In this document: positions 26,267 to 64,000 of the stretch, piece after piece
Position numbering within the stretch: the stretch's first letter is position 1
How the letters are laid out: each line of letters opens with the position of its first letter
Source of the DNA: an uncultured Eubacteriales bacterium
GTDB taxonomy: Bacteria; Bacillota; Clostridia; Christensenellales; CAG-138
Length of the DNA: 64,000 bases
Direction: 5' to 3'
Assembly (NCBI GenBank): GCA_902768795.1
Contig: CACXMS010000004.1
Location: 10,978 to 74,977 of the forward strand
The notes under the pieces: model-generated
What the model was told of the DNA's origin: nothing
Seen by the model: the letters and a program-made list of their open reading frames with translations, nothing else
The model's database searches: none
Translations under genes and position numbers: made by a program

Positions 26267-26285
26267 AGGCGAAAAGGAGACTGCT

Positions 26286-27515
26286 ATGAAGAAAAAAATT
26301 GTTGCCATGCTGCTTGCGGGCGGCCAGGGCAGCCGTCTCGGCATCCTGACCTCTCACATGGCGAAGCCGGCCGTACCGTTCGGCGGAAAGTACCGCATCA
26401 TTGACTTTCCGCTTTCCAACTGCGTCAATTCCGACATCGACACCGTCGGCGTTTTGACGCAGTACCGGCCGCTTGCGTTGAACGCCTACCTCGGAACCGG
26501 CCAACACTGGGATCTCGACCGCAGCAGCGGCGGCGTCTTTGTGCTGCCTCCTTACATGACCGAAAAAGACGGCCGCTGGTACAGCGGAACCGCGAACGCG
26601 ATCTGGCAGAACCGCGAGTTCATCGATCAGTACGATGCGGAATACGTGCTGATTCTCTCGGGCGACCACATCTACAAGATGGACTACCATAAGATGCTGC
26701 AGTTCCACATCCAGAACCGCGCGGCGGCGACGATCGCGGTCTTTCGCGTACCGCTTGCCGAGGCGCACCGCTTTGGCATCATGAACACGGACGAAAAGAA
26801 CAACATCACTTCGTTCGAGGAAAAACCGAAAAACCCCAAGAGCGGCAACGCTTCGATGGGCATTTACATCTTCAACTGGAAAACGCTCCGCCGCTATATG
26901 GAGAAGGACGACGGCGATCCCGCTTCCGAAAACGACTTCGGCAAGAACATCATTCCCGCCATGCTGAACGCGGGCGAAAAGATGATCGCCTATCCGTTCG
27001 ACGGATACTGGAAAGACGTCGGAACGATCACGAGTCTCTGGGAAGCGAACATGGACATGCTCGGCAACCCGCCGGTGCTCGATCTGAACGATCCGAAATG
27101 GCGCATCTATACGCATAACCTCGCGCTGCCGCCGCACTATATGGACCGCACCGCAAAGGTCTCCGACAGTCTTGTGACCGAAGGAAGCGTCGTCCGCGGC
27201 GTTGTGAAGCATTCCGTGCTGTTCGCCGGCGCGCATGAGGACATCTATACCGAGATCACCGATTCCGTCGTGTTCCCGAACGCCATGATCGGCAAGAACT
27301 GCACCGTGAAGAAGGCGATCATCGGTGAAAACGTTGTGATCGGCGACGGCTGCACGATCGGCGGGCCGCTCCGCGAGGGCGAAACGGTCGACAACCGGCT
27401 GACGGACGATATTACCCTGATCGGCAACGATGTCACGATCCCCGCCGGAACCTATATTCCGCAGGGCGCCGTCGTCAACGCCGATACGCTCCATCTGTTC
27501 ACAAAGGAGGCCTGA
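26286..27515 (+). CDS. glgC: Glucose-1-phosphate adenylyltransferase
   Basis: 409 aa. [26 protein letters not shown]. Confidence 0.95.
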
Positions 27516-27518
27516 CGT

Positions 27519-28643: not shown

Positions 28644-28672
28644 CCGTAAAACGCAACATAAAGGAGAACCGC

Positions 28673-35431: not shown

Positions 35432-35432
35432 G

Positions 35433-36557
35433 TCAATCCTCCAGCTTTTTCACGAACGAGCGGCGACGCTTGTGCATCACCGTCTTAAACCGTTTCCACT
35501 GATTCTGGATCGCGTAGTTGTCCTCCAGATTCAAGTTCGTTTCCGCATACTCCACGCCGTCCTCCCGCAGCATTTTTTCGAGCGCCGCCGAGATTGCAAC
35601 GCTGATGCCGCGGTTTGCCCATGCCGGATCGATACCGATCAGGCCGAGGTCGATGATCTTCGGATGCTTGATCGCCCAGAGCAGCCGCACAATCGCCGCC
35701 GGCGTCAGGTGTCCGTGCGAGGGCTGTACGGCCTTTGCGATCGACGGGAAGCAGATGCCGAGGCAAACGATGTTGTCGTTCTCGTCGAGAAGGACTGCGA
35801 CATGATCGAGGTCGATGATCAGTCGGAAATTGTCGATCATCAGCTTCTTCATGCCTTCGGTGAACGGAACCGTTCCGTAAAGCTTTTCATACGACTTGTC
35901 GAGCAGTTCAAACAGTCCGTCCGCATACCGGTCGATAAAATCATTGACATTTTTCGCGGGACCGAAATGCAGGTTGTACCGCGCCATCAGCTTTTCGGTC
36001 ACGCGCGCCAACGATCCGTCGTTTTTTTCGGGCGCATAGATCTTGCTCTCCGTCCAGTCGACTTCCTTCTCGTATCCGCAGTTTTCGATCAGCCGCTGAT
36101 AGTACGGCGCGTTGTACTGTTCCTCAAACGTCGAAAGCTGATCGAAGCCCTCGATCAAAAGACCTTCGCGCTCGAGATCCGAAAAGCCGAGCGGCCCGCA
36201 GACCGTATCCATGCCCTTCTGCCGCGCCCAGTTTTCCACCGCGCTTAGCAGCGCGTCTGCGACTTCCTGATCGTCGATCGCGTCGAACCGCGTGAAACGC
36301 ACGCGCTTTTCCCGGTTCTTTTCGTTCGCGGATTTTTGCAGAATGCCCGAGATACGACCGACGATCCTGCCGTCGCGGTATGCGTTGAAATAAACCGCCT
36401 CGCAGATATCATTGTAGATATAATCCGCGCGGAAGATCTTTTTTTCATCGCCGTAAAGCGGCGGTACGAAGTACGGATTGTCCCGATACATCTTCAGCGG
36501 AAATTGCAGAAATTCCCGCTGTTCACGCTTTGTTTTGACCTCTTTGACCGTTACCAT
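35433..36557 (-). CDS. Uncharacterised GNAT-fold-like protein (~370-aa family)
   Basis: 374 aa. N-terminus KREQREFLQFPLKMYRDNPYFVPPL, typical of a conserved uncharacterised acyltransferase-like family. C-terminal half has a GNAT-like NRGISVAISAALEKML region. Call made from memory only. Confidence 0.45.
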   Translation of the reverse strand: MVTVKEVKTKREQREFLQFPLKMYRDNPYFVPPLYGDEKKIFRADYIYNDICEAVYFNAYRDGRIVGRISGILQKSANEKNREKRVRFTRFDAIDDQEVADALLSAVENWARQKGMDTVCGPLGFSDLEREGLLIEGFDQLSTFEEQYNAPYYQRLIENCGYEKEVDWTESKIYAPEKNDGSLARVTEKLMARYNLHFGPAKNVNDFIDRYADGLFELLDKSYEKLYGTVPFTEGMKKLMIDNFRLIIDLDHVAVLLDENDNIVCLGICFPSIAKAVQPSHGHLTPAAIVRLLWAIKHPKIIDLGLIGIDPAWANRGISVAISAALEKMLREDGVEYAETNLNLEDNYAIQNQWKRFKTVMHKRRRSFVKKLED

Positions 36558-36570
36558 GCGAAAACCCCGT

Positions 36571-37440
36571 TTATCTGTGCTTGGCGTGGAAGCAGATGCC
36601 GACGCCGTTCGGGCCGCAATGTCCGCCGGTCGTCGGATTGACCGGGACGATCATCAGGTCGATGTCCTCGCCGAATTTCACCTTCAGCATTCCCGCGACT
36701 TCGTTTGCAATCACCGGAGCGTCGGTATGACCGACGATCACGCGGTGTGCGCGCACATCCTCACCGAGCTCCTCGGTATATTGCAGCAGGCGGTTGATCG
36801 CGCGCTGACGGCCGCGCTCGGAACCGATCGAAACCATCTTGCCCTCGGAATTCATGTAGATGATCGGACGGACGCCGATCAGCGTGCCCATCATCGCGGC
36901 AAGGCCGGAAACGCGCCCGCTGTGCTTGAAAAACTTCAGATCGTCCGCGAAGAAATAGATCGCAAATTTATCGACCTCGGTCTTGGCCCATTCGAGGATC
37001 TGCTCGACGGGCTTGCCGGCCTTCACCATATCGCCGACCTCGAGCACGATCGCCAGACTCACGATCGTGATGCCCTTCGTGTCGATATCGTAGAACCTGC
37101 GCTCCGGATACTTTTCCCGCAGCTTTGCCACGGCCTGATCCATCGCGTCGAACGTCGCTGTCATCGCGCGGGAAAAATGGACATAGAGGATATCGTCGCC
37201 GTTTCTGAACACCGGTTCAAAGGCCTCGATGTATTTTTCGCAGCTGATCGCACTCGTATTCGGCAAAGCGCCCGCGCGAAGCTGATCGTAAAACGCCTTC
37301 ACGTCAAACACGTCGAAGTCCTCATACGGATAAACGGTCTTTCCGTCGATCGCATAAGGCATGCTGATCAGAGAATAGCCATACTCCTTCGCAATCTCCG
37401 GAGTAACGTCGCAGTCGGTGTCGGTAAACAGTTTCAGCAT
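36571..37440 (-). CDS. fakB: DegV-family fatty-acid-binding protein (FakB-type)
   Basis: 289 aa. LKLFTDTDCDVTPE, PNTSAIS, HCGPNGVGI motifs of DegV. Confidence 0.85.
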   Translation of the reverse strand: MLKLFTDTDCDVTPEIAKEYGYSLISMPYAIDGKTVYPYEDFDVFDVKAFYDQLRAGALPNTSAISCEKYIEAFEPVFRNGDDILYVHFSRAMTATFDAMDQAVAKLREKYPERRFYDIDTKGITIVSLAIVLEVGDMVKAGKPVEQILEWAKTEVDKFAIYFFADDLKFFKHSGRVSGLAAMMGTLIGVRPIIYMNSEGKMVSIGSERGRQRAINRLLQYTEELGEDVRAHRVIVGHTDAPVIANEVAGMLKVKFGEDIDLMIVPVNPTTGGHCGPNGVGICFHAKHR

Positions 37441-37450
37441 AAGACCCTCC

Positions 37451-39106
37451 TCATTCCAAAATCATGATATAATCGTAAATCGGCTGCCCGCCCTCGAGCA
37501 GAATAACCTCCGTCATCGGATGCGCGCTTTCGAGCGCCGCACGGATCGCTTCGGCCTCGTCCGGATCGGCGTTCTGACCGCAAACCAGCAGCAGAATTCC
37601 GAAATCGTCGGCTTCCAGCGCCTTTGCCAGCTGCAGCGCGGCTTCCTTCGCTTCGACCGCGTCCGAATAAATGACGCCGTTCGAGAACCCGATATAATCG
37701 CCCTCACGGACGGAAATGCCGTCGCGCTCCGTCGTGCGGCTTGCCTTGGAAACCGTTCCTTCCCGGACGCTCATCATAATCGAAACGGCGCTCTCCGTGA
37801 TCTGTTCCAGGTCCCCGGAAGCGGTGTCGAGCAGCGACAGCGCGGCATAGCACTCGGCGATGTTATGGCTCGGCATCACGGCGATGCGCGCCCCGTCGTA
37901 CAGCGACGCCGCCTGCTCCGCCGTCAGAATGATATTGCTGTTGTTCGGAAATACGAGGATCGAATCGGCGTCGATCGCGCGGAACGCGTTCAAAAAGCTC
38001 TCCGCGCTCGGATTCATGCTCTGCCCGCCGTCCACGACCTCGTCCGCACCGAGCGAAAGGAACGTTTCATGAATGCCCTTGCCCGCCGCCACCGCAACGA
38101 TACCCACGGCCTTATGCGGTTTCCGCTTGCTCGAATAATTGTTGCGGATCGTCGTTTCATGGTGCTGCAGCATCATGTTTTCGATCTTCATCGTCAAAAA
38201 CTCGCCGTACCGATGGCACTCGGCAAGCACCGTTTCGGGCGTCATCGTATGGATATGCACCTTCAATACGCTGCCGTCGCGGAACGCAACGACCGAATCG
38301 CCGTTGGCGATCAGCCAGTCGATCAGCGGCTTCTCGTCGAACGCTGCCACCGGCCCTACCTTTGCCGTCTGAAACCGCAGCAGAAACTCGGTGCAGAATC
38401 CGAATTCCAGTTCGGTGTCCTCGGTGAAGGAATCGAGATCGACCCGGGCCGCTTGCGACGCCGTGCCGCCGGCGGACGACTCGATTTCTTCGCCGCGCAG
38501 AGCGTTCTGCATGCCTTCGGCGATGTACACGAATCCCGCGCCGCCCGAATCGACGACCCCCGCTTCCCGCAAAACGTCGAGCAGCATCGGCGTGCGGTCG
38601 AGCGATGCGCGAAGCTCGGTCAAAAACAGCTCGAAATACTGCTCAAAGTCCGTTTCTTCGCTGATGCGGTCATTCGCGTAGCGCACCGCGTCGGAGTAAA
38701 CCGTCAGGATCGTTCCCTCGACCGGCGTCTGCACCGCGCTGTAGGACTCCTTGACGCCGCGCTCCAGCGCGCTCGCAAACGTGCGGATGTCCGCTTTCGT
38801 AACGCCCTCAAGCCCCTTGGAGATTCCTGCAAAGATGCGGGAAAGGATCACGCCCGAGTTGCCGCGCGCGCCGAGGAGCATGCCCCCGGCGATCCGGCTC
38901 GCCGTCGGCGCGAGGTCTTCCTCTTCCCTGCCTGCCACTGCGGAATAGCCGGCGTCGATCGTCATAAACATATTGTCCCCGGTGTCTCCGTCGGGAATCG
39001 GGAAAACGTTCAGCTCGTTGACGATGACACGATTGTTTTTCAGTCGTGCGGCGCCGCCCTCCACCATGTGGGCAAAGAGCGGGCCGTTCAAAAGTGTTGT
39101 CTCCAT
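37451..39106 (-). CDS. fakA: DAK2-domain protein (FakA/YloV-type fatty acid kinase catalytic subunit)
   Basis: Start trimmed to METTLLNG (GGAAGGGG RBS). FPIPDGDTGDNM Dak2 motif. About 550 aa, as for FakA/YloV. Confidence 0.8.
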   Translation of the reverse strand: METTLLNGPLFAHMVEGGAARLKNNRVIVNELNVFPIPDGDTGDNMFMTIDAGYSAVAGREEEDLAPTASRIAGGMLLGARGNSGVILSRIFAGISKGLEGVTKADIRTFASALERGVKESYSAVQTPVEGTILTVYSDAVRYANDRISEETDFEQYFELFLTELRASLDRTPMLLDVLREAGVVDSGGAGFVYIAEGMQNALRGEEIESSAGGTASQAARVDLDSFTEDTELEFGFCTEFLLRFQTAKVGPVAAFDEKPLIDWLIANGDSVVAFRDGSVLKVHIHTMTPETVLAECHRYGEFLTMKIENMMLQHHETTIRNNYSSKRKPHKAVGIVAVAAGKGIHETFLSLGADEVVDGGQSMNPSAESFLNAFRAIDADSILVFPNNSNIILTAEQAASLYDGARIAVMPSHNIAECYAALSLLDTASGDLEQITESAVSIMMSVREGTVSKASRTTERDGISVREGDYIGFSNGVIYSDAVEAKEAALQLAKALEADDFGILLLVCGQNADPDEAEAIRAALESAHPMTEVILLEGGQPIYDYIMILE

Positions 39107-39125
39107 ACAAACCCCTTCCGAATGA

Positions 39126-39707
39126 TTATGCAATAAAAGAAGTCACGCCGCTGCGAATCAGCAGCTTAACCTGCTTGGAAATCTCCTCCAGCGATTGCTG
39201 CATGCCGGCATTGACCCAATCCCGGTATACCGAAACGATGCCGCTCGTCAGAAAGTCTGCGTACAGCTTCGTGTACGGCCGTTTCGACGGCTCGACGCGC
39301 TTTCCGAGGAACCCGTCCACGCGCACCGAAATCAAAGCCGCAAGCTTGTCCAGTACGTGCGAGGTTTTGTTCTTCTTCAGCAGCGGCGTCGCCAGTTCGT
39401 CGTGCGCGTTGAATGCATTCGTAATCGCCTGCAAAAAGCCGAACGGATCCCCTTCGCAGCGGGAGAAATCCGACTCGTGCACCACGCCGTCAACCGTATG
39501 CACAAGCTCGTTTTCCAGCTCCTCCAGGATCGCGGAAACGCTCGGATAATAGTTATAAATCGTCTTTCGGTCAAGCGCCGCGGCCTGCGCGACGTCCGTC
39601 ACCGTGATATCCGCCGCATCCTTCTGCCCGAGCAGTCCGAGATACGCCTTGCGGATCGCAGCGCGTGTCCGCGGAATACGGCTGTCTGCTTTCCGTTTTC
39701 TTCTCAT
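39126..39707 (-). CDS. TetR/AcrR-family transcriptional regulator (DhaS-like)
   Basis: Start trimmed to MRRKRKAD behind an AGGAGG RBS. Helix-turn-helix ITVTDVAQAAALDRKTIYNYYPS. Confidence 0.85.
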   Translation of the reverse strand: MRRKRKADSRIPRTRAAIRKAYLGLLGQKDAADITVTDVAQAAALDRKTIYNYYPSVSAILEELENELVHTVDGVVHESDFSRCEGDPFGFLQAITNAFNAHDELATPLLKKNKTSHVLDKLAALISVRVDGFLGKRVEPSKRPYTKLYADFLTSGIVSVYRDWVNAGMQQSLEEISKQVKLLIRSGVTSFIA

Positions 39708-50196: not shown

Positions 50197-51321
50197 TCAG
50201 AACAGGAGGTTCTTTTCGGTTTCGGGATCGAAGAAGTGCATGACTTTGCCTTCGAAGGTGACATAGAGCTTCGCGCCGCTGACCATGCCTTCGCGCTGCT
50301 GGGGCGTAAGGTCGATCGTCGGGATGCGGACGATGAGGCGCGTGCCGTCCTCGGTGTAAACGTGCAGATGCAGCTCGGAGCCCATCATTTCATTGACCTC
50401 GAGGGTTACCGGGATCGCATGCTCGCCCTGCTCCTTCGCAAGGACGATGTGCTCCGGACGAACGCCGAGCAGAATCTCTCCGCCCTCTACGTTCTTTTCC
50501 TTGAGCAGCTTGCCCTTTTCGCCGTCCACTTCGATCTTCGCGCCGAACGGCGTGACATAGTACTTGTCGCCCGCCTTGATCATGTTCGTGCGGAGAACGT
50601 TCATCTTCGGCGCGCCGATGAATTCTGCGACGAAGAGGTTTTCCGGCATTTCGAACACTTCCGTCGGGGTGCCGACCTGCATGATGTAGCCGTCCTTCAT
50701 GATGACGATGCGGTCGCCGAGCGTCATGGCCTCGGTCTGATCGTGCGTAACATAGATGAACGTCGTATCGAGCTTCTGACGGAGCAGGATGATCTCGGCA
50801 CGCATCTGGTTACGCAGCTTTGCGTCAAGGTTCGAAAGCGGTTCATCCATCAGGAAGACCTTCGAGTCGCGCACCATCGCACGGCCGATCGCAACACGCT
50901 GACGCTGTCCGCCGGACAGAGCGCGCGGTTTACGCATCAGGTACTGGGTGATGCCGAGAACCTCGGCAGCGTTCGTAACCTTGTTGTAGATCACGTCTTC
51001 CGGCATCTTCTGCAGACGGAGGGAGAACGCGATGTTGTCAAATACGGTCATGTGCGGATACAGCGCGTAGTTCTGGAAAACCATCGCGATGTTCCTGTCC
51101 TTCGGCTGGAGATCGTTGACGACCTCGCCGTCGATTTCGACCGTACCGTCGCTGATCTCTTCCAGACCGGCGACCATACGAAGCGTCGTCGACTTGCCGC
51201 AGCCGGACGGTCCGACAAATACGACAAACTCTTTATCCTTGATGTCGAGGTTGAAGTCGTGTACGGCGACGACGTTGTTATCGTATACTTTCTTTACGTT
51301 TGTAAGTTTTACACTTGCCAT
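50197..51321 (-). CDS. msmK: Sugar ABC transporter ATP-binding protein (MsmK/MalK/UgpC type)
   Basis: 374 aa. GPSGCGKST, LSGGQRQRVA, VFLMDEPLSNLD. C-terminal TOBE-like domain. Confidence 0.9.
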   Translation of the reverse strand: MASVKLTNVKKVYDNNVVAVHDFNLDIKDKEFVVFVGPSGCGKSTTLRMVAGLEEISDGTVEIDGEVVNDLQPKDRNIAMVFQNYALYPHMTVFDNIAFSLRLQKMPEDVIYNKVTNAAEVLGITQYLMRKPRALSGGQRQRVAIGRAMVRDSKVFLMDEPLSNLDAKLRNQMRAEIILLRQKLDTTFIYVTHDQTEAMTLGDRIVIMKDGYIMQVGTPTEVFEMPENLFVAEFIGAPKMNVLRTNMIKAGDKYYVTPFGAKIEVDGEKGKLLKEKNVEGGEILLGVRPEHIVLAKEQGEHAIPVTLEVNEMMGSELHLHVYTEDGTRLIVRIPTIDLTPQQREGMVSGAKLYVTFEGKVMHFFDPETEKNLLF

Positions 51322-51358
51322 ATCGGTGTACTCCTTTTCTTCACGTTAGAGTTCGGGC

Positions 51359-52252
51359 TTAACCCTTGACCGCGCCGCCCGTGACGCCTTCCACATAGTA
51401 TCTCTGCAAGCACATGAACAGGATCACGACCGGGATCGCGACGACGACGCCGCCTGCGCAGAACATGGTGTAGTAATTGTTCGTCATCGTATCGGTTGCC
51501 AGCCAGGACTGCAAACCGACTGCTACGTTGTATGCGCTCGGCGTAACGCCGCTCACGTATTTTGCAAATACGAAGTCGCCCCAGGGGCCCATGAACGCCG
51601 TCAAAACCGTGTAGATGACGATCGGCTTTGCAAGAGGCAGGATGATCTTGAACAGCACCTGCGATCTGGTCGCGCCGTCGACGCGCGCCGCTTCGTCCAG
51701 CGATTTCGGGATCGTATCGAAGAAGCCCTTCGAAACGTAGTATCCCATGCCGGACGACGCGCAGTAGACGAGGATCAGGCCGGGGATCGCGTTTGCGCCC
51801 GCCAGACCGAGGTCCTTCAGGACCTGGTACAGGATGATCATGGAGAGCATGCCCGGGAACATGCCGAGGATCAGCATGAACTGCATCAACGGCTTACGCA
51901 GTTTGAAGCGGAAGCGCGACAGCGTGTAAGACATGCACAGAACGATGATCGTCTGTACCACCGCGACGACGATCGCGATGATGAAGGTGTTCAGATACCA
52001 TTTCGGGAAATCGGACTGCCAGAGTTTAATGTAGTTATCAAAGCCCCATTTGAATTCGATTTCCGGGTGATGGAGCAGATAACGCGACATGGTCGTGGGT
52101 TCTACACGGAAGGACTGAATCACGATACACACGAACGGGATCAGCCAGATCACGCTGATAAAGACCAGGATGAGGTGAATGATGGTGTTGCTGATGCGCG
52201 ACGCCGCCTTCATGCCCATGTGTCTCTTCATAGAGTTTTCTGTCGTTTTCAT
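51359..52252 (-). CDS. Carbohydrate ABC transporter permease (MalG-like)
   Basis: 297 aa. EAA loop DEAARVDGATRSQVLFKIILPLAKP. Confidence 0.85.
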   Translation of the reverse strand: MKTTENSMKRHMGMKAASRISNTIIHLILVFISVIWLIPFVCIVIQSFRVEPTTMSRYLLHHPEIEFKWGFDNYIKLWQSDFPKWYLNTFIIAIVVAVVQTIIVLCMSYTLSRFRFKLRKPLMQFMLILGMFPGMLSMIILYQVLKDLGLAGANAIPGLILVYCASSGMGYYVSKGFFDTIPKSLDEAARVDGATRSQVLFKIILPLAKPIVIYTVLTAFMGPWGDFVFAKYVSGVTPSAYNVAVGLQSWLATDTMTNNYYTMFCAGGVVVAIPVVILFMCLQRYYVEGVTGGAVKG

Positions 52253-54015
52253 TATTGGAAATCCTCCTCATTCTTGACCGAGGGCAGAACGCTGTAAACG
52301 ACCAGCGAAATGGCGCCGACCACAATAAAGACGAGAATACCGATGACGGAAGCGAGATAATACTGCGAACCATCCTGCGCCGTGCCGGTCTGCGTGATCT
52401 TGAACAGCCAGGTGATCAGAAGGTCCGTGTACCCTACGTTGCCCGCGGCGCCGGAAGCTGCCGGGTTCGTCGGTCCGCCGCCTGTCAGCAGGTAGATGAC
52501 GTTGAAGTTGTTCATGTTGCCCGTAAAGCTCGTCAGAAGGTACGGACCGGTGATGAACAGCATGTACGGAAGCGTGATCTTGCTGAACTGCTTCCAGCCG
52601 CTTGCGCCGTCGATCTTTGCGGATTCATAAAGATCCGCCGGAATGTTCATCAGGATGCCGGTTGCGATCAGCATCAGGTACGGAATACCGATCCAGATGT
52701 TGATGATGATGACCACGATACGCGCCAGAACCGGGTTGTTGCCGCCGAGGAAGTCGATCGCTTCCGACGGCTTGATGAATCCGAGATCAATCAAAAAGCC
52801 GTTGATAAGACCGTTCAGACTGAACATCTTGGAGATGTACAACAGGGAGATGAACTGCGGAATCGCGATCGTCATGATCAGAATGGTTCTCCAGACCTTC
52901 TTGAGGTGGATGCCCTTCTTATTGATCGCCATTGCGACGAGGATGCCGAGGAAGTAGTTCGTGAACGTCGCAAAGACCGCCCATACCAGCGTCCACAGCA
53001 GAATCTCGCCGAACGTCGCGGAGTAGTTGACACCGCCGACGTCCCAGGAGAACATCGTCTTGAAGTTTTCAAAGCCGACCCAATGGAACAGACCGTTGTA
53101 CATACCGTCGTTGATCGAGGAATAGTTTGTGAACGCAACCAGGATCATGAAGACGATCGGCATGACCGTAAAGATCAGGATACCGAGAGTCGGGAGAGCG
53201 AGCAGCGTCTTATGGAACTGATCGTCCACAAGCGACTTCAGGTCGTCCTTGCCGCTCTTGAGCGGTTTTCCGGTACGAAGAATGTCTTCCGCGATTTTGT
53301 TCTGCTTGATATTGGTGTACCAGGTGTAAGCAAACGCGACAATGAAGAAAATTGTCAGAACGCCGTACAGCAGAATCCGGAACGACTGATCGCCGGGCGT
53401 CGATACCCACTGATCCAGCACTTCGTTATAGGCGCCGTGCGGATTCGGGGCAACCGTACCGAGCGAAGGCAGCATGGAAAGCCAATAGGCGCCGCCTTTC
53501 GGAATGACCATGTAGCCGATGAAAACGATCTCAAGCAAGAGGAACAGCAGGCCGCGAAGCACCTGGCCTCTTGTGATGTTGCCAAAGCCCATGACAACGT
53601 AGGAAATTTTGGTCTTCCAATCGCCGTGAATGAACGTTGTTACGATGCCTGCCAGGCCTTTTCCGATTCCGACAAAGAACTGGACGATCTTTTTGCCGGC
53701 GTTGGAGCAGAAAACGACAAGCCCGTTGCGCTCACGCGATTTGATGTAGGAGCCGCTCTGTACAACCTTTTTGTTGTACTGCGTGGTCCGGATCATTTCA
53801 TGAATTCCCAGATAAAGCAGGATAATGGCGCCGATCACCATGATCGCCGTAATCACTGCCCAAACCCAGAAGCCGTCCTCGCCGAACTGATAGGGCGTGA
53901 GGATCGATTTCTTGATTTTCGGGACAAGAACCGATGCAACCATCCACGAAATCCCCGCCAGAATGACGCCGAGCACGGTCTTTACTACCGCGGGGACTAT
54001 CTTTTTCTTATACAT
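52252..54015 (-). CDS. Carbohydrate ABC transporter permease (MalF-like, extended N-terminus)
   Basis: 587 aa. EAA loop YESAKIDGASGWKQFSKITLPYM. AAGGAGGG RBS. Confidence 0.85.
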   Translation of the reverse strand: MYKKKIVPAVVKTVLGVILAGISWMVASVLVPKIKKSILTPYQFGEDGFWVWAVITAIMVIGAIILLYLGIHEMIRTTQYNKKVVQSGSYIKSRERNGLVVFCSNAGKKIVQFFVGIGKGLAGIVTTFIHGDWKTKISYVVMGFGNITRGQVLRGLLFLLLEIVFIGYMVIPKGGAYWLSMLPSLGTVAPNPHGAYNEVLDQWVSTPGDQSFRILLYGVLTIFFIVAFAYTWYTNIKQNKIAEDILRTGKPLKSGKDDLKSLVDDQFHKTLLALPTLGILIFTVMPIVFMILVAFTNYSSINDGMYNGLFHWVGFENFKTMFSWDVGGVNYSATFGEILLWTLVWAVFATFTNYFLGILVAMAINKKGIHLKKVWRTILIMTIAIPQFISLLYISKMFSLNGLINGFLIDLGFIKPSEAIDFLGGNNPVLARIVVIIINIWIGIPYLMLIATGILMNIPADLYESAKIDGASGWKQFSKITLPYMLFITGPYLLTSFTGNMNNFNVIYLLTGGGPTNPAASGAAGNVGYTDLLITWLFKITQTGTAQDGSQYYLASVIGILVFIVVGAISLVVYSVLPSVKNEEDFQ

Positions 54016-54207: not shown

Positions 54208-56352
54208 TTATTCCGCCAAGGCAAGAGTCAGGGTTCTTGCATTGATGTCAAGCGTGACAATGTAGTTGCCGTCCGCCTCAACCGGCACGTTGGCACCGCC
54301 CATCAGCAGCTCACCATCGGTGAGGCCGAAGTTCACAGCCCAGTCGCCGTTCGCACGAACTTTGAACTGATTGCCGGCCTTCAGCGCGATCTGTTCGGAT
54401 GTCCAAACGCCAAGTTCAGTCTCGGTCATCGCAGCATCGGTGCTCCAGCCGCTGCCTTCGAAGTCGCCGATCACGCCCCAGGTCGCGATCTTCTCAACGG
54501 TCAGCGTCGGCGCTTCAGCGTCCGGATTCAGGGCAACATAGTAGGTGCCGTCCTCTTCGACCTTCAGGTTGGTCTGACCGTCTGCCTTAACATTGCCTTC
54601 CTCATCGAGGCCATAGTTCAGCGCCCAAGCACCGTCTGCACGGACTTTGAACTCTTCGCCCGCCTTCAGAACGACAACCGCCTGCCAGAGTTTGGTTTCC
54701 TGATTGTCGAACATCGGGATGTCGGTATCCCAGTTGGTGCCGCAGATCGCGCCGATCAGCGCCCAGGTGTGGATCGCGTCGGGATCGGGTTCGGGAGTAG
54801 CGGGTGCTTCAACAACCGCGCCGCTCTCGTCGAGCAGTTCGAGCGTGAAGGCGTTGAGGTCGAGCTTAACGGTGTACTTGCCGTCGGCCGGAACCTGCAT
54901 GTTCGGACCATCCGGTACGCAATCCTGGCCGTAGTTGACGGACCAGCTTGCGCCCTGGCGAACTTTGAATTCTTCGCCCGCATGGAGCTCGAGCACGTCA
55001 GAAACGAACACGTTCGCTTCGGTCTCGGTCATCGGGAGGTCGGTATCCCAGTTGGTGCCGCAGACTGCGCCGATGACGGCCCAGGCGTTCTTCTCTTCTT
55101 CCGTCATGTTGAACAGAGCGGAGATCTTGTCATAGTAGTTCTGCAGAGCCTGCTTCAGACCTTCTTCGTCTTCCGCTGCCTTTACGTCATCCGCGATGAC
55201 CTTCGCGATATCCCACCAGGAGCCGTGGATCTGGCCCTGCGGACGGGAGTAAGCGTTCTGCTTCAGAAGAGCCGCGAGGCCCGGGTTGTTCTGGACCGCT
55301 TCGGAATTCTGAGCGTTGGTGTTGGACGGACCCCAGGCAAGCGCTTCGAAACGCTCCATCTGGCGGGCTTCGTCGGTGAGGTACTGAGCGAGCTTGTGGA
55401 GAGCAGCCGCGCGGGTCGCATCGTCCTGCGGCTTAATGCCCATCAGCTTGCAGCCGTTGAAGGAACCGAGGTGATACTCTTTGCCGTCAACTTCGAAGGA
55501 GGGCAGGTCCGTGACGCCCATCTTGTCGCCGAGCAGACCCTGGATGTCGCTGTACGCCCAGGTGCCGGTCACAACGATCGCCGCGTCGCTGGCAAATTCA
55601 GCGGCAGCGGAGGAGGACTTGTGCATCGGGGAATCGACGAGCTTCTTCATGCCCTTCGCAGCGATGAGACCTTCGGGGCTGTTAAACGTATCTTTAACAG
55701 AGATGAAGGAACCGTCGTCGCCGGTCGTCCATTCGGAGACGCAGCCGGTCGCGAAGAACCAGGACGCAATGTACCATGCAGAGGTGTTCGCTTCAAAAGC
55801 AAACCACTTGTTCGCCGCTTCGCAGTCCGCGATCAGCTTCTCGAGAGAGTCAACGTCTTCCTCCGGGATGACGGTCTTGTCATAATACATGAAGTAGCCG
55901 TTATCGGAGGTCAGCGGGTACGCATACAGCGTATCGCCGGAGGTCGCAGCCGCAACAACGCCGGGGTCGTTTGCCGCTCTCACCGTTTCCGCCGCCTTGT
56001 CGCCGAGTCTGTTCAGAGCGCCGCCCTGGACAAGACGAGCGAACTGGTCCTGCGCGAAGCAGTAGATGTCAGCGCCGGCAGAAATGTCGACGAGCATCTG
56101 GTCCGCACTCGTCGCCTCGGAAACCGGGTTGACCGTCGCGTTGAACTTGATGCCGAACTCGTTGCTGTTGTTGAAGTCCTCGATCTGCTTCTTGGTCAGA
56201 TCAACAGCGTTCTCACCGACCCAGACAGTGATGTCATAGGTTCCGGCAAGATCGTTGCCCGTGGTCGTCGGCTGCTCGGGAGTGGTTCCGGTGCAAGCGA
56301 CAAGCGCGAGAACCATGACGAGTGCCAGCACGATTGCTAACGTTCTTTTCAT
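54208..56352 (-). CDS. Extracellular solute-binding lipoprotein (maltodextrin/oligosaccharide type) fused to three C-terminal CBM-like beta-sandwich repeats
   Basis: Start trimmed to MKRTLAIVLALVMVLALVACTG (lipobox; AGGAGGAAG RBS). Solute-binding-protein body of about 430 aa. Then 3 units of W-x-[VL]-IG-x3-G-x-x-W-x-T-D..LKAG-x-[EQ]-FKVR-x-x-G-x-W-x-x-N-[YF]-G. Confidence 0.8.
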   Translation of the reverse strand: MKRTLAIVLALVMVLALVACTGTTPEQPTTTGNDLAGTYDITVWVGENAVDLTKKQIEDFNNSNEFGIKFNATVNPVSEATSADQMLVDISAGADIYCFAQDQFARLVQGGALNRLGDKAAETVRAANDPGVVAAATSGDTLYAYPLTSDNGYFMYYDKTVIPEEDVDSLEKLIADCEAANKWFAFEANTSAWYIASWFFATGCVSEWTTGDDGSFISVKDTFNSPEGLIAAKGMKKLVDSPMHKSSSAAAEFASDAAIVVTGTWAYSDIQGLLGDKMGVTDLPSFEVDGKEYHLGSFNGCKLMGIKPQDDATRAAALHKLAQYLTDEARQMERFEALAWGPSNTNAQNSEAVQNNPGLAALLKQNAYSRPQGQIHGSWWDIAKVIADDVKAAEDEEGLKQALQNYYDKISALFNMTEEEKNAWAVIGAVCGTNWDTDLPMTETEANVFVSDVLELHAGEEFKVRQGASWSVNYGQDCVPDGPNMQVPADGKYTVKLDLNAFTLELLDESGAVVEAPATPEPDPDAIHTWALIGAICGTNWDTDIPMFDNQETKLWQAVVVLKAGEEFKVRADGAWALNYGLDEEGNVKADGQTNLKVEEDGTYYVALNPDAEAPTLTVEKIATWGVIGDFEGSGWSTDAAMTETELGVWTSEQIALKAGNQFKVRANGDWAVNFGLTDGELLMGGANVPVEADGNYIVTLDINARTLTLALAE

Positions 56353-56478
56353 TCTTTTTCTTCCTCCTGTTACATTTTTGCTTTTTAAGCAATGAATAGA
56401 TCGGTCAAGGTTCGATTCCCTGTACCTGATAGAGTACAAGAAACAGGGAATCCCCTGTTCGTTCCTTTTCCGACTACT

Positions 56479-62058: not shown

Positions 62059-62088
62059 TTGACACGCCGCGCGCCGACGCGGTATAAT
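62059..62088 (+). promoter_or_regulatory. Near-consensus promoter of the PqqD-like operon
   Basis: TTGACA, 18 nt, TATAAT, immediately after the mtaD stop. Confidence 0.7.
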
Positions 62089-62095
62089 AGCAAAA

Positions 62096-62140
62096 ATGAA
62101 AAAGGAACCGCCGTTTTATCGGCGGAAAAGGAGAAAATGA
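62096..62140 (+). other. 14-codon micro-ORF (MKKEPPFYRRKRRK), candidate leaderless leader peptide
   Basis: ATG 7 nt after the -10 box with no RBS. Its TGA overlaps the PqqD-like ATG (AAAATGATG). Contains a CCGCCG-TTTTAT-CGGCGG hairpin. Confidence 0.25.
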
Positions 62141-62400
62141 TGAAACTGAAGCCCGATTTTATCACACAGGACATTGACGGAACCCAATTTCTGATCGCCG
62201 TCGGCGGCGAATCCTTCAACGGAATCGTAAAGAGCAACCCGACCGCGGCTTTTATCGTGGATCAGCTGAAGCAGGAAACGACCGAAGAGAAGATCACCGA
62301 CGCGATGTACGCCGAATACGATGCGCCGAGAAGCGTCATCGCCGCCGACGTGCATACCGTCGTCGAAACGCTGCGAAGCATCGGCGCCATCGAGGACTGA
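62137..62400 (+). CDS. PqqD-family protein (RiPP recognition element-like)
   Basis: Only the last 87 codons of track ORF 61462-62400 are credible (AAAGGAG RBS, MMKLKPDF..). ..NPTAAFIVDQLKQETTEEKITDAMYAEYDAPRSVIAADVHTVVETLRSIGAI fits the PqqD pattern. Confidence 0.7.
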   Translation: MMKLKPDFITQDIDGTQFLIAVGGESFNGIVKSNPTAAFIVDQLKQETTEEKITDAMYAEYDAPRSVIAADVHTVVETLRSIGAIED

Positions 62401-62404
62401 TCCG

Positions 62405-62860
62405 GTGTCGGAAACGACATTCGAGGACATTCTGGCCAAGGAAGGCCGCCTCGTCTACAAAACAAAGGGAACCAGCATGCTGCCGATGCTGCATCAGAAC
62501 CGCGATATCGTCGTGATCGAGCGACCCGAAGGCCGCTTACAGCCGTTTGACGTCGCGCTCTACCGCAGAGGCCCGCAGTATGTTCTGCACCGCGTTCTGG
62601 AAGTGCGGGGATCCGATTACGTGATCCGCGGCGACAATACCTATGTGCTCGAAACGGGCATTACGGACGAGGATGTGCTCGGCGTTCTGAAGTCGTTCGT
62701 CCGCAAAGGGACGCCGCACAGCGTGACCGAACCCGGATACCTGCGGTACGTACGCTTCTGGTGCGCGATCTATCCCGTTCGCGCGTTTTTCGTTACGCTG
62801 TACCGGCGGATCCGGCGCCTCGGCGGTACCGTTTTACGAAAACTCGGCTTCAGAAAGTAA
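62405..62860 (+). CDS. S24/S26-family peptidase-like protein (Ser/His/Asp, SipW/Sec11-like signature, no N-terminal TM)
   Basis: GTG start 4 nt after the PqqD-like stop (GAGGA RBS). GTSMLPML (Ser24), YVLHRV (His62), IRGDN (Asp77). C-terminal hydrophobic segment FWCAIYPVRAFFVTLY. Confidence 0.6.
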   Translation: MSETTFEDILAKEGRLVYKTKGTSMLPMLHQNRDIVVIERPEGRLQPFDVALYRRGPQYVLHRVLEVRGSDYVIRGDNTYVLETGITDEDVLGVLKSFVRKGTPHSVTEPGYLRYVRFWCAIYPVRAFFVTLYRRIRRLGGTVLRKLGFRK

Positions 62861-62873
62861 AGGAACTCCCGCC

Positions 62874-64000
62874 ATGCAGCATAAACAACTGACCGGCATT
62901 TTTATCCTTGCCACCGCGGCGACGCTGATCGTCGGTACGTTTGTTTTGCTTGCCGCGGGCGTTCTGCGTCCGTCGCTCTCCCTTTCTCTGCCGCGCACCG
63001 CGCCTTCCGCCGTCCCCGCCGAAGTGCAGATTGAACTGTCTGTCACGCCGACACCGACCGAAAAACCGACCGTTTCACCGGTCCCGTCCGCCGTTGTGTA
63101 CCCGCCGAATGCGGTCAATCTGCTCGTTAACGGCTCGCCGCTGTTTGCTTTGTCCGGAAAGGACGCCGCCGAGCAGATGCTTTCCGATTACCTTTCGGTC
63201 TGCGCCTCGGAGAATCTGACCGGCGAGGAATCGCTGATCCGCGCCTACATCGATGCGGAGCTTTCGCTCCTGCCCGTAGACGGAACGGTCGATTATCTGT
63301 CCTACGAGGAAGCGAAGAACCGCCTGCTTTCCAACCGGGCGCTGATCCCCGTCGTGCGATCCACGCAGCATGCGCTGATCGAAATCGGCTCAGTGGAAAC
63401 GACGACCGTCAGTCAGCCGCTGCTTCCTTCCGGCGCGCGGCTGTACCGCTCGCTCGGCAAAGCGGAACGGCGCTTCTCTCTGACGGAAACGCTGTATAAA
63501 AACGGCATTGCGGTTTCCGATTCCACCACGCTCGCCTCCACGCGCATCGGCAGCGATCCTGCGGCGCGCGTGATCGAAAACGGTACGTTCTCCTACCGCA
63601 GCGACGCCGCCTCCGAAACGGAAGGCCCCAAAGGCAAGGACGCCGGCGATCTCAAGCTGACCGCGCCGTGCCGCGGAACCGTGATCAGTTGGTTCGGAAA
63701 ACGCGGCGGCACGATGCACTACGGCATCGACTATTCGCTGCGTCCGGGCGAATCCATTGTCGCGCCCGAAAGCGGAACCGTAATCTTCTGCGGTACCCGC
63801 GGCGATTACGGACTTGTCATCGAAATTCAGCACGGAAACGGCTTTGTTTCCCGGCTGACGCACTGCGCTTCGCCGACCGTCGAGCTCGACCAGCACGTTT
63901 ACCGCGGCGATCGCGTCGCGCTGCTCGCGGCCGAAGACACCGATGAGCCGCATCTGCATTACGAACTGCTGATCGACGGCATTCCGTTCAATCCGCTCCC
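62874..64000 (+). CDS. Membrane-anchored M23 (LytM-type) metallopeptidase, 3' end beyond window
   Basis: Own translation (not in the ORF track). MQHKQLTGIFILATAATLIVGTFVLLAAG TM, PT-rich linker, MHYGIDY (HxxxD) and HLHYEL (HxH) zinc motifs. Confidence 0.8.
   Translation, partial: MQHKQLTGIFILATAATLIVGTFVLLAAGVLRPSLSLSLPRTAPSAVPAEVQIELSVTPTPTEKPTVSPVPSAVVYPPNAVNLLVNGSPLFALSGKDAAEQMLSDYLSVCASENLTGEESLIRAYIDAELSLLPVDGTVDYLSYEEAKNRLLSNRALIPVVRSTQHALIEIGSVETTTVSQPLLPSGARLYRSLGKAERRFSLTETLYKNGIAVSDSTTLASTRIGSDPAARVIENGTFSYRSDAASETEGPKGKDAGDLKLTAPCRGTVISWFGKRGGTMHYGIDYSLRPGESIVAPESGTVIFCGTRGDYGLVIEIQHGNGFVSRLTHCASPTVELDQHVYRGDRVALLAAEDTDEPHLHYELLIDGIPFNPL

What the first reader, a model, noticed from the sequence alone, without database searches (positions are those of the whole stretch)
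62137..62860. Orphan RRE (PqqD-like) protein coupled to a TM-less Ser/His/Asp S24/S26-type peptidase, followed by an M23 peptidase
An 87-aa PqqD-family protein, the fold used as a peptide-recognition element in RiPP pathways, is followed 4 nt later by a 151-aa protein. That protein has GTSMLPML (Ser24), YVLHRV (His62) and RGDN (Asp77). The spacing resembles the Ser/His/Asp arrangement reported for SipW/Sec11-type signal peptidases. It lacks the N-terminal membrane anchor such enzymes normally have. No radical-SAM, YcaO, lasso-cyclase, PqqB/C/E or obvious precursor gene is present. The pair could be a minimal unit that recognises and then cleaves a peptide made elsewhere. Alternatively it could be a regulator-cleavage system in the LexA/S24 style. 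A membrane-anchored M23 peptidase follows 13 nt downstream and may belong to the same unit.
Basis: partly seen in the sequence, partly recalled or inferred. Interest (0 to 1): 0.6.

Follow-up and report, generated by a model that had tools for sequence, protein, structure and literature searches.

The report
Stand-alone RiPP leader-recognition and peptidase pair
Two small genes of a cattle-rumen Clostridia bacterium encode a peptide-recognition protein and a signal-peptidase-like enzyme of a kind shown in 2026 to trim leader peptides off ribosomal natural products. Here the pair stands alone, with no peptide, modifying enzyme or exporter gene nearby.

Summary
An 86/87-aa PqqD-fold protein (Pfam E 3e-14) is followed 4 nt later by a 151-aa, anchor-less S26-like peptidase, then 13 nt later by a membrane-anchored M23 peptidase.

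The pair is a distant homologue of LppB/LppS. That is an RRE plus a SipW-like "SpI" leader peptidase, shown experimentally by Popov et al. (Nat Commun 2026, PMC13381572). Ser24 and His62 align with LppS S29 and H68.

The peptidase family is large (2982 representative clusters at E<=1e-10), and the genome relatives retrieved are nearly all ruminant-gut MAGs. Relatives sit in cassettes of HprK-like kinase, YxxP-leader precursor, radical-SAM/SPASM maturase, PqqD, peptidase, ABC exporter and NTP-transferase. Natural fusions to PqqD, kinase, NTP-transferase and ABC exporter exist.

In this genome none of those partners lies within 62 kb upstream, and AzlCD follows M23. The pair is nevertheless under purifying selection, has a consensus promoter, and appears in rumen metatranscriptome contigs.

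M23 is probably co-transcribed but is an independent gene: its orthologues elsewhere lack the pair.

Verdict: a new member of a recently described kind in an unusual orphan context. The LexA-style reading is rejected.

The parts
62059..62088 (+). Sigma-70-type promoter TTGACA-18 nt-TATAAT (12 of 12 matches) driving the PqqD-peptidase(-M23) transcript
   Evidence: The same consensus hexamers and 18-nt spacing lie upstream of the PqqD gene in L010 and L011.
62108..62125 (+). 6-bp GC hairpin (CCGCCG-TTTTAT-CGGCGG) in the 5' UTR. It overlaps a 14-codon mini-ORF (62095-62139). Function unknown.
   Evidence: Sequence. It was reported as a terminator-like site on the minus strand only. An A-run indel after 62098 is seen in runs X25/X26.
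62140..62400 (+). PqqD-fold RiPP recognition element (RRE), 86 aa (87 if started at 62137). Acidic: 15 D/E against 7 K/R.
   Evidence: Pfam PF05402 E 3e-14. It is 32% identical (E 2e-15) to the RRE paired with an SpI-like peptidase in SSN cluster 9 of Popov et al.. It is 62-72% identical to PqqD proteins of full cassettes with YxxP-leader precursors. dN/dS 0.15-0.33. The homologous domain of a natural fusion superposes on lasso B1 proteins TbiB1 and TfuB1 (TM 0.77-0.84).
62405..62860 (+). SipW/LppS-like ('SpI-like') Ser/His leader peptidase, 151 aa. It has an N-terminal helix (6-13), an S24/S26 beta core and a basic C-terminal amphipathic helix (110-146). Key residues: Ser24 (62474-62476), His62 (62588-62590), Asp77 of the GDN box (62633-62635), Glu83 (62651-62653).
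   Evidence: hhalign against LppS: probability 94.7%, E 6.4e-8. BLASTP E 2e-6. BLASTP E 5e-20 to cluster-9 protein SCH01704.1. AF2 pLDDT 90. Foldseek top hits are SpsB, SipA, LexA, cI and UmuD. Invariant residues. dN/dS 0.04-0.23. No TM segment.
62874..64000 (+). Membrane-anchored M23 metallopeptidase (TM 9-27; HxxxD = HYGID and HxH = HLH intact). It runs off the window; full length is 379 aa. It is probably co-transcribed but is not a conserved partner of the pair.
   Evidence: PF01551 E 3.9e-21. The full gene is seen in L092-L094. Orthologues without the pair: L089, L090, L091, L095. The trio occurs in WIN, L010 and L011.

Best explanation
The two genes encode a two-component leader peptidase of the LppB/LppS type.

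Proposed mechanism, by homology:
1. The acidic PqqD-fold protein is a RiPP recognition element. It binds a [Y/W]xxP-type motif in the leader of a ribosomal precursor peptide by beta-strand addition.
2. The RRE-leader sheet docks on the N-terminal helix of the peptidase (invariant F6/E7/L10).
3. The last leader residues are thereby placed in the active site of a cytoplasmic SipW-like serine peptidase. In relatives these residues are V/L-T-S, which fits the -3/-1 rule.
4. Ser24 acts as nucleophile and His62 as base, with Glu83 and the GDN-box Asp77 in support. The leader is cut off.
5. The basic amphipathic C-terminal helix probably holds the enzyme at the inner face of the membrane, next to an exporter.

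In this genome the pair has been separated from the kinase, radical-SAM, precursor, exporter and NTP-transferase genes that accompany it in relatives. It sits in a three-gene operon with an unrelated cell-wall M23 peptidase. Its substrate must therefore be encoded elsewhere in the genome (action in trans).

Shown here: gene identities, homology, conservation, orphan context, promoter, and presence in RNA-derived contigs.
Shown by others for the homologue: RRE-dependent leader cleavage.
Inferred: the same activity for this pair, the identity of the substrate, and membrane association.
For: - Homology of both partners to characterised or catalogued RRE plus SpI-like pairs. The LppS and LppB sequences and biochemistry come from PMC13381572.
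- Alignment of catalytic residues: S24=S29, H62=H68, E83=D93, D77=D87. All are invariant.
- S24/S26 fold with an N-terminal helix and a long C-terminal helix.
- Co-occurrence and fusions. 29 of 59 loci have an adjacent PqqD gene and 41 of 59 have some RiPP-type partner. Among the best 150 representatives there are 6 PqqD-peptidase, 4 HprK-like-peptidase, 3 NTP-transferase and 1 ABC-exporter fusions.
- Relatives carry precursors with a Y-E-K-P...V-I-x-T-S leader in front of Cys/Asp-rich cores.
- The window's RRE is 62-72% identical to RREs of such full cassettes.
- Maintenance and expression: dN/dS 0.04-0.36; a consensus promoter conserved in three genomes; RNA-Seq-derived contigs covering 62235-62825 but not the flanks.
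Against: - No precursor-like ORF, maturase or exporter of the family lies anywhere in the 64 kb window or just downstream. The substrate is therefore unknown and action in trans is untested.
- Identity to LppS is only 23%, and the RRE has no BLASTP-detectable similarity to LppB itself.
- 17 of 59 loci have the peptidase with no partner at all. It may therefore have an RRE-independent or non-RiPP role.
- The third residue is Glu, not Asp.
- Logan contigs of metatranscriptomes can contain DNA and do not measure expression well.
Confidence: 0.7

Rival explanations
1. The pair is a remnant of a degraded RiPP gene cluster. It was left behind when the precursor, maturase, kinase and exporter genes were lost, and it has no substrate in this organism.
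For: - The family is modular and patchy, and partners come and go between related loci.
- L017, L033 and L061 keep only the peptidase at the site where L007-type genomes have the full rSAM cassette.
- Popov et al. infer many gain and loss events for LPP systems.
- No substrate gene is in the window.
Against: - Both genes are intact in three genomes that have diverged to 65-83% amino-acid identity, with dS near or beyond saturation and dN/dS of 0.04-0.33.
- All catalytic residues are invariant.
- A perfect consensus promoter is conserved.
- RNA-derived contigs exist.
A useless remnant should have decayed.
Confidence: 0.13
2. The pair works together with the downstream M23 peptidase as one functional unit. 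For example, it might process or regulate a cell-wall hydrolase or a peptide that controls it.
For: - Same strand, a 13-nt gap, and no promoter or terminator between the genes.
- The trio is conserved in WIN, L010 and L011 although the upstream neighbours differ.
- In this lineage the M23 gene has no promoter-sized spacer of its own.
Against: - M23 orthologues at 42-59% identity stand alone with their own promoters.
- None of the other peptidase loci surveyed has an M23 neighbour.
- The M23 domain is extracytoplasmic behind a TM anchor with only about 8 cytoplasmic residues. The peptidase has no signal or TM segment.
- No YxxP-type leader is visible in the M23 sequence.
Confidence: 0.08
3. The peptidase has a general, RRE-independent housekeeping role. 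For example, it could be a cytoplasmic or peripheral processing protease for non-RiPP proteins, with the RRE only an optional adaptor.
For: - 17 of 59 well-flanked loci carry the peptidase with no recognisable partner, all with intact motifs.
- These lie next to polysaccharide-type genes: a glycosyltransferase, an epimerase and LicD.
- The family is large and highly conserved.
Against: - The characterised homologue LppS is inactive without its RRE.
- The invariant N-terminal helix residues match the RRE-docking surface described for LppS.
- The fusions are all to RiPP-type partners.
- In this window the RRE is retained and translationally close.
Confidence: 0.07
4. It is a LexA/UmuD-style self-cleaving regulatory system, with an S24 protease plus a winged-helix partner acting as a switch.
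For: - The fold search returns LexA, lambda cI and UmuD among the top hits.
- A natural PqqD-peptidase fusion gives full-length LexA as its first hit, because the RRE is also a winged helix.
Against: - His replaces the Lys of the Ser/Lys dyad.
- GDN box E is an S26 feature.
- There is no Ala-Gly-type cleavage loop and no DNA-binding domain in the 151-aa protein.
- The PqqD protein is acidic, so DNA binding is unlikely.
- The LexA superposition of the fusion has an rmsd of 13.8 A, so only the separate domains match.
- The homologue LppS cleaves a separate substrate.
Confidence: 0.02

Closest known systems
LppB/LppS of the linear polyphosphorylated peptide (LPP) pathway, Paenibacillus alginolyticus (Popov et al., Nat Commun 2026, PMC13381572)
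   Same: - A discrete PqqD-fold RRE next to a 151-aa SipW-like 'SpI' peptidase. The window protein has no TM anchor, and LppS has the same length and aligns over about 110 residues.
- The Ser/His catalytic residues align, and the validated third position (D93) is occupied by an invariant acidic residue.
- Both have an N-terminal helix with conserved acidic and hydrophobic residues.
- Relatives of the window pair share the other LPP core genes: HprK-like kinase, NTP_transf_5 and an MsbA-like ABC exporter.
- Relatives also share a YxxP leader motif with a small residue at -1.
   Different: - Only 23% identity to LppS, and the RRE is not BLASTP-alignable to LppB.
- The third residue is Glu, not Asp.
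- The window lacks the kinase, NTP-transferase, exporter and precursor.
- Many relatives add a radical-SAM/SPASM maturase and Cys/Asp-rich cores, which the paper does not mention.
- The hosts are rumen Clostridia and other phyla rather than Bacilli.
Uncharacterised RRE-associated SpI-like peptidases of SSN clusters 4 and 9 in Popov et al., Supplementary Data 1 (e.g. SCH01704.1 with SCH01659.1 from an uncultured Ruminococcus; WP_073589069.1 from Anaerocolumna)
   Same: Both partners are homologous to the window pair: peptidase 29-31% identity (E 5e-20 and 5e-11), RRE 32% (E 2e-15). The RGDN...E motif and the basic C-terminal helix are shared.
   Different: These are catalogued only, with no function or neighbourhood analysis published. 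They are still a different subfamily at about 30% identity.
SipW / Sec11 / archaeal (ER-type) type I signal peptidases, MEROPS S26
   Same: Box B Ser (SM.P), His in place of the box D Lys, the GDN box E with an acidic residue 6 positions later, and the beta-barrel-like S24/S26 fold.
   Different: - No N-terminal membrane anchor, so the catalytic domain is predicted to be cytoplasmic.
- It scores below every curated Pfam and TIGRFAM cut-off.
- It needs an RRE (by homology) and cuts RiPP leaders rather than Sec signal peptides.
Split lasso-peptide leader peptidase B1 (RRE) + B2 (transglutaminase-like Cys protease)
   Same: The same logic: a discrete PqqD-fold RRE binds a YxxP leader and presents it to a separate leader peptidase. 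The RRE fold superposes on TbiB1 and TfuB1. HprK-like kinase and NTP_transf_5 are shared accessory genes.
   Different: The peptidase is a serine S26-like enzyme, not a cysteine protease. No lasso cyclase is present. According to Popov et al. the docking surface is different.
C39 peptidase-domain ABC exporters (PCATs)
   Same: One family member (P0170) has the S26-like peptidase fused to the N-terminus of an ABC exporter. This suggests leader removal coupled to export at the cytoplasmic face.
   Different: The protease fold and catalytic type differ. In the window the peptidase is free-standing and no cognate exporter is nearby.

Membership tests
RRE-dependent SpI-like leader peptidase pair (LppB/LppS type) | Discrete PqqD-fold RRE gene directly adjacent to the peptidase gene on the same strand | tested here: met
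   PF05402 E 3e-14. The gap is 4 nt. An adjacent PqqD gene is present in 29 of 59 related loci.
RRE-dependent SpI-like leader peptidase pair (LppB/LppS type) | Peptidase homologous to LppS (about 150 aa, SipW-like) | tested here: met
   hhalign probability 94.7%, E 6.4e-8. BLASTP E 2e-6, 23% identity. Both proteins are 151 aa. The window protein has no TM segment.
RRE-dependent SpI-like leader peptidase pair (LppB/LppS type) | Catalytic residues equivalent to LppS S29, H68 and D93 | tested here: met
   S24, H62 and E83 align with them and are invariant. The third residue is a conservative Asp-to-Glu change.
RRE-dependent SpI-like leader peptidase pair (LppB/LppS type) | RRE homologous to LppB | tested here: inconclusive
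   No BLASTP alignment to LppB. However, it is 32% identical (E 2e-15) to the RRE of SSN cluster 9 in the same study and belongs to the same Pfam family.
RRE-dependent SpI-like leader peptidase pair (LppB/LppS type) | Core neighbours: HprK-like kinase, NTP-transferase, MsbA-like exporter | tested here: not met
   None of the family's partners is in the window or just downstream. The two ABC genes at 4.4-8.2 kb are about 54 kb away and were treated as unrelated. The partners are present in many relatives.
RRE-dependent SpI-like leader peptidase pair (LppB/LppS type) | Precursor ORF with a [Y/W]xxP leader in the cluster | tested here: not met
   No hit in the window. The only motif match (9170-9295, minus strand) is antisense inside a lipoprotein gene. 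Such ORFs are present in relatives.
RRE-dependent SpI-like leader peptidase pair (LppB/LppS type) | [quoted passage not shown] | not testable with these tools
   This needs a biochemical assay. It has been shown only for LppS/LppB.
Type I signal peptidase, S26 (SipW/Sec11 ER-type) | Box B Ser, box D His (ER-type) and box E GDN | tested here: met
   GTSMLP, LHRV and RGDN align with SPase I boxes in PDB chains 4me8, 4nv4 and SpsB. 130 of 150 representatives match the motif pattern with His and none with Lys; the other 20 do not match it.
Type I signal peptidase, S26 (SipW/Sec11 ER-type) | N-terminal membrane anchor with an extracytoplasmic catalytic domain | tested here: not met
   The best 19-residue hydropathy window is 1.02, at residues 115-133. 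The N-terminus is a short amphipathic helix.
Type I signal peptidase, S26 (SipW/Sec11 ER-type) | Score above the curated family thresholds | tested here: not met
   PF00717 12.2 bits against 23.3. TIGR02228 22.4 against 51.85. TIGR02227 16.3 against 47.
S24 LexA/UmuD self-cleaving proteins | Ser/Lys dyad, internal cleavage site and (for repressors) an N-terminal DNA-binding domain | tested here: not met
   His stands at the Lys position. The 151-aa protein has no extra domain. Only the fold is shared.
PQQ biosynthesis PqqD | Part of a pqqA-E operon; equivalog score | tested here: not met
   TIGR03859 21.6 bits against 46. No rSAM gene (PqqE) was found, and none of the 30 large ORFs scanned matched a PQQ family.
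Lasso peptide B1/B2/C system | Transglutaminase-like B2 protease and Asn-synthetase-like cyclase nearby | tested here: not met
   Neither appears among the genes scanned. The lasso PqqD models score far below cut-off: 35.4 against 70 and 15.3 against 80.
M23 metallopeptidase (downstream gene) | M23 domain with HxxxD and HxH zinc motifs | tested here: met
   PF01551 E 3.9e-21. HYGID and HLH are visible in the translated sequence.

The most novel reading that the evidence does not exclude
The orphan pair is a free-standing, trans-acting 'leader-removal service' that matures YxxP-leader peptides encoded at distant loci. The wider rumen family would then be an undescribed radical-SAM branch of the SpI-peptidase RiPPs: Cys/Asp-rich cores, optional phosphorylation, and S26-like peptidase domains that can even replace the C39 domain on ABC exporters, all spread by horizontal transfer across at least four phyla of ruminant-gut bacteria. 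A bolder version is that the retained pair (and the frequent peptidase-only loci) serve a non-biosynthetic role. One example would be processing or neutralising leader-bearing peptides that the cell does not itself modify.
Probability: 0.3. Interest if true: 0.6.

Novelty: new member of a known kind. Interest (0 to 1): 0.4.

Why it matters
SpI-like (SipW-type) serine peptidases were added to the list of RiPP leader peptidases only in 2026, from Bacilli and only for linear polyphosphorylated peptides.

This locus and its relatives show three further things:
- The same RRE-plus-peptidase core is abundant in the rumen microbiome and has moved between phyla.
- It is combined with radical-SAM/SPASM maturases and Cys-rich precursors.
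- It is sometimes fused to ABC exporters.

The window adds a case where the core pair is kept, expressed and under selection without any cluster around it. That bears on genome mining: cluster-based tools will miss trans-acting processing enzymes, and 'orphan RREs' need not be false positives. It also offers a compact two-protein leader-removal tool for peptide engineering.

For the gene pair itself the result is mostly a correct annotation rather than a new principle.

Tried and rejected
- Precursor search in the window. An HMM built from 20 relatives' precursors gave a best E of 0.53. A [YWF]xxPx[LMVIFA] regex found one tempting ORF (9170-9295, minus strand...LEYDTPLMVIV...ELPELP). It lies antisense inside a clear lipoprotein gene (8346-9425, plus strand) and was rejected.
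- The 14-codon mini-ORF in the 5' UTR (MKKEPPFYRRKRRK) has no leader motif, and its A-run varies between samples. It was not pursued as a precursor.
- LexA-like regulator reading: rejected (see rivals).
- Anti-phage defence reading: no PADLOC hit for any of the three proteins.
- Structured RNA or tRNA near the locus: no Rfam hit and no tRNA in the whole window.
- M23 as a system component: rejected from orthologue contexts.
- Sequence-only PDB searches gave only marginal signal-peptidase I and TfuB1 hits. The structure-based search was needed.
- Direct PqqD-LppB comparison gave no alignment. The link had to be made through cluster-9 sequences.
- The fusion-protein model has two confident domains but pTM 0.55 and a disordered linker. 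No conclusion on the RRE-peptidase interface was drawn.
Full report
**Observation**

- The first runs from ATG 62137, or more probably ATG 62140, to the stop at 62398-62400. It encodes an 86/87-aa protein that passes Pfam PqqD (PF05402, E 3e-14, 53.5 bits against a cut-off of 23.4).
- Four nucleotides later a GTG at 62405 opens a 151-aa ORF ending at 62860.
- Thirteen nucleotides after that an ATG at 62874 opens an M23 peptidase gene (PF01551, E 3.9e-21). It runs off the window and is 379 aa in identical public contigs.
- The 151-aa protein has GTSMLPML (Ser24), YVLHRV (His62) and RGDN (Asp77), as stated.
- It has no hydrophobic segment strong enough for a membrane span. Its best 19-residue Kyte-Doolittle mean is 1.02, against 2.49 for the M23 anchor.
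- It scores only below threshold against S24/S26 models: PF00717 E 0.15 and TIGR02228 E 9e-5.

**Reality of the genes**

The peptidase-like protein has at least 599 close homologues. A profile search of 1.84 billion representative proteins gives 8691 hits at E<=1e-3 and 2982 at E<=1e-10.

In an alignment of 32 homologues, S24, H62, D77, N78 and E83 are invariant, as are F6, E7 and L10 in the N-terminal helix. Of the best 150 representatives, 130 match G.SM.P...[H]R...GDN. None has Lys at the His position.

The same three genes occur in the same order in two other rumen MAGs: L010 (83% peptidase identity) and L011 (70%). Pairwise dN/dS is 0.15-0.33 for PqqD, 0.04-0.23 for the peptidase and 0.13-0.36 for M23.

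A perfect TTGACA-18-TATAAT promoter lies at 62059-62088. It is conserved upstream of the PqqD gene in all three genomes.

Contigs assembled from two bovine RNA-Seq metatranscriptomes cover 62235-62825 but not the flanking genes. This suggests expression, with the caveat that such contigs are a poor measure and may contain DNA.

**What the peptidase is**

An AlphaFold2 model (pLDDT 90) has a short N-terminal helix (6-13), a beta core and a long C-terminal helix (110-146). Foldseek against the PDB returns SpsB, SipA, LexA, lambda cI and UmuD, which is the S24/S26 fold.

In sequence alignments with solved bacterial signal peptidases, Ser24 falls on the box B serine and His62 on the box D lysine. 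RGDN is the box E GDN motif.

The last 42 residues contain 11 Lys/Arg and no acidic residue. They form a strongly amphipathic helix (hydrophobic moment up to 0.73). This fits an in-plane membrane anchor on the cytoplasmic side, which is an inference.

**Genomic company elsewhere**

A scan of one genome per species (GTDB) found 294 relatives, of which the best 79 distinct loci were kept. Nearly all of those come from ruminant-gut MAGs. The hosts include Lachnospiraceae, Oscillospiraceae, Christensenellales, Erysipelotrichales-type Solobacterium, Atopobiaceae/Coriobacteriaceae and Anaerolineaceae.

I built HMMs from the neighbours and re-scanned all loci. This shows a modular cassette:

[HprK-like/ScmC-like] - [one or two small ORFs] - [radical-SAM/SPASM maturase] - PqqD - peptidase - [ABC exporter] - [NTP_transf_5]

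Among 59 loci with enough flanking DNA:
- 29 have the PqqD gene directly upstream, often overlapping by 4 nt.
- 41 have at least one RiPP-type partner.
- 8 have only ABC-exporter genes as partner, without PqqD; those examined have NHLP-type exporter genes directly upstream.
- 17 have the peptidase alone, always with intact motifs.

The small ORFs form a clear precursor family. The leader is M-x-x-Y-E-K-P-x-M-E-V-I-x-L...D-V-I-(V/L)-T-S, followed by short Cys/Asp-rich cores. The V/L-x-S end fits the -3/-1 rule of signal peptidases.

Natural fusions among the best 150 representatives join the peptidase to several partners:
- PqqD (6 cases)
- the HprK-like protein (4 cases)
- NTP_transf_5 (3 cases, in either order)
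- the N-terminus of an ABC exporter (P0170)

A model of one PqqD-peptidase fusion has an N-terminal domain with the beta3-alpha3 RRE topology. That domain superposes on the lasso B1 proteins TbiB1 and TfuB1, which were solved bound to their leaders (TM 0.77-0.84, rmsd about 2 A). The relative orientation of the two domains is not reliable (pTM 0.55).

**The literature match**

Popov et al. (Nat Commun 2026, PMC13381572) describe this logic. [quoted passage not shown] Together they make linear polyphosphorylated peptides.

Key findings of that paper:
- LppS alone does not cut the precursor; LppS plus LppB does.
- S29A, H68A and D93A abolish cleavage.
- The leader carries a YxxP motif and is cut after F-E-T.
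- In their AF3 model the RRE-leader sheet packs on the N-terminal helix of LppS (E6, I10).
- About 75% of SpI homologues in their set co-localise with an RRE.

Using the LppS sequence from their Supplementary Data 1, the window family profile aligns to it with hhalign probability 94.7% and E 6.4e-8. BLASTP gives E 2e-6 at 23% identity. The residue equivalences are S24=S29, H62=H68, D77=D87 and E83=D93.

So the residue equivalent to the experimentally required third residue is the invariant Glu83. It is also invariant and may also contribute, as the two Asp residues do in Sec11 (my own knowledge of that family).

The window RRE is not BLASTP-alignable to LppB. Both window proteins do match the uncharacterised Clostridial pair of SSN cluster 9 in that paper: peptidase 29% (E 5e-20) and RRE 32% (E 2e-15). 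The peptidase also matches a cluster-4 Lachnospiraceae protein at 31% (E 5e-11).

The paper's text and held supplements contain no mention of radical SAM. Its main text does not mention Clostridia, although Supplementary Data 1 lists Clostridial members. Other full-text searches found no earlier description of an S24/S26-type peptidase paired with PqqD.

**The window's own situation**

None of the partner families occurs anywhere in the 64 kb.
- No likely gene has a CxxxCxxC motif.
- Pfam scans of 30 further large ORFs show housekeeping functions: Mfd, aromatic amino-acid synthesis, ProRS, the glycogen operon, fatty-acid kinase, transporters and so on.
- The 6 kb upstream encodes YbaK-like, acetyltransferase, nucleoside phosphorylase and amidohydrolase genes.
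- A public contig identical over the trio shows convergent AzlD/AzlC directly after M23 (L093).
- In L011 the trio lies between rubrerythrin and holA-region genes.

So the pair is orphan on both sides. Its RRE is nevertheless 62-72% identical over its full length to RREs of complete cassettes with YEKP-leader precursors, such as L068 and L053. The same leader specificity is therefore likely.

**M23**

Orthologues of the M23 protein at 59, 56, 53 and 42% identity stand without the pair. They have divergent or unrelated upstream genes and their own promoter-like sequences. In the loci examined, the pair was seen with M23 only in the close relatives L010 and L011 (61-79% M23 identity). No other peptidase locus has an M23 neighbour.

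The simplest reading is that the pair, with its promoter, was inserted in front of a pre-existing cell-wall hydrolase gene in one narrow lineage. M23 is then probably co-transcribed (13-nt gap, no terminator) but is not part of the system. Its zinc motifs (HYGID, HLH) are intact.

**Mechanism proposed**

The RRE binds the YxxP part of a leader. The complex docks on the peptidase's N-terminal helix. The V/L-T-S junction reaches Ser24/His62, supported by Glu83 and Asp77, and the leader is removed at the cytoplasmic face of the membrane.

- Shown here: homology, conservation, context.
- Shown for the homologue: RRE-dependent cleavage.
- Inferred: activity of this pair, its substrate (encoded elsewhere), and its localisation.

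I put 0.7 on this. The rivals are a substrate-less remnant (0.13), a unit with M23 (0.08), an RRE-independent housekeeping protease (0.07) and a LexA-like switch (0.02).

**Novelty and score**

As a kind of system this is known since May 2026. The window pair is a new, divergent member in an unusual orphan arrangement.

The more novel material lies in the relatives: a radical-SAM branch, exporter fusions, and cross-phylum spread in the rumen. That was seen in passing and is only partly followed up. Interest 0.4.

Noticed in passing
L053 4434-11243; L062 5214-11217; L068 5249-10157; L007 7957-10462 (related loci): Full cassettes in rumen MAGs: HprK-like/ScmC-like protein, one or two precursors (Y-E-K-P...V-I-x-T-S leader, Cys/Asp-rich core), radical-SAM/SPASM maturase (below every NCBIfam equivalog cut-off; nearest are TIGR04463 and PapB-type), PqqD, S26-like peptidase, ABC exporter and NTP_transf_5. 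This is a radical-SAM branch of the LppB/LppS-type systems that the 2026 paper does not mention.
   Followed up: partly
P0170 (684 aa); also P0152, P0171, P0181, P0218, P0240, P0259, P0179, P0207, P0219, P0266, P0141, P0151, P0231: Natural fusions of the peptidase domain. One is to the N-terminus of an ABC exporter, an S26-like counterpart of C39 peptidase-domain exporters. Others are to PqqD, to the HprK-like protein, and to NTP_transf_5 in either order.
   Followed up: partly
L017 7866-8456, L033 6781-7362 and L061 3666-4127, compared with L007, L031, L045, L050 and L066: In L017 and L033 the peptidase gene sits alone at the same chromosomal site (pyruvate kinase - SDF transporter - aminotransferase | peptidase | Rnf operon); L061 shares part of this block. 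At that site the other genomes carry precursor + rSAM + PqqD + peptidase. The peptidase is the stable element and the RiPP genes come and go.
   Followed up: partly
window 62095-62139: The 5' UTR of the PqqD gene holds a 6-bp GC hairpin (62108-62125) and a 14-codon mini-ORF (MKKEPPFYRRKRRK) ending on the PqqD start. Runs X25 and X26 carry an extra A after 62098.
   Followed up: no
window 62235-62825: In two bovine RNA-Seq metatranscriptomes (X27, X28) assembled contigs cover only the PqqD/peptidase genes, not the amidohydrolase or M23 flanks. This hints at higher or separate expression of the pair.
   Followed up: partly
window 54208-56439 (-): A sugar ABC solute-binding protein (SBP_bac_8) is extended by three tandem C-terminal repeats of about 100 aa (W.(V/L)IG...W(D/S)TD...FKVR...W..N(Y/F)G). 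One repeat matches the pullulanase X25 starch-binding domain. The gene heads a MalK-type transporter operon (50200-54015).
   Followed up: partly
window 3-2606 (-) and 2685-4184 (-): A TIR_2 + TPR protein (cut by the window start) lies next to a TPR + DUF6273 protein. This may be a defence-type or signalling pair.
   Followed up: no
window 30142-32034 (+): A stand-alone AMP-binding + PP-binding (adenylation-carrier) didomain protein lies directly after the glycogen genes glgB-glgC-glgD-glgA (24404-30145).
   Followed up: no
L022 4217-4609 and 7998-8459: Two copies of the peptidase gene are interleaved with five paralogous ORFs of 460-581 aa and unknown family. A weak ScmC-like hit lies nearby.
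   Followed up: no
window 34418-39133 (-) compared with L095 4583-9262: The PlsX - unknown - DegV - FakA block lies directly beside the M23 orthologue in L095. In the window it is about 25 kb away, so there has been a rearrangement in this lineage.
   Followed up: no
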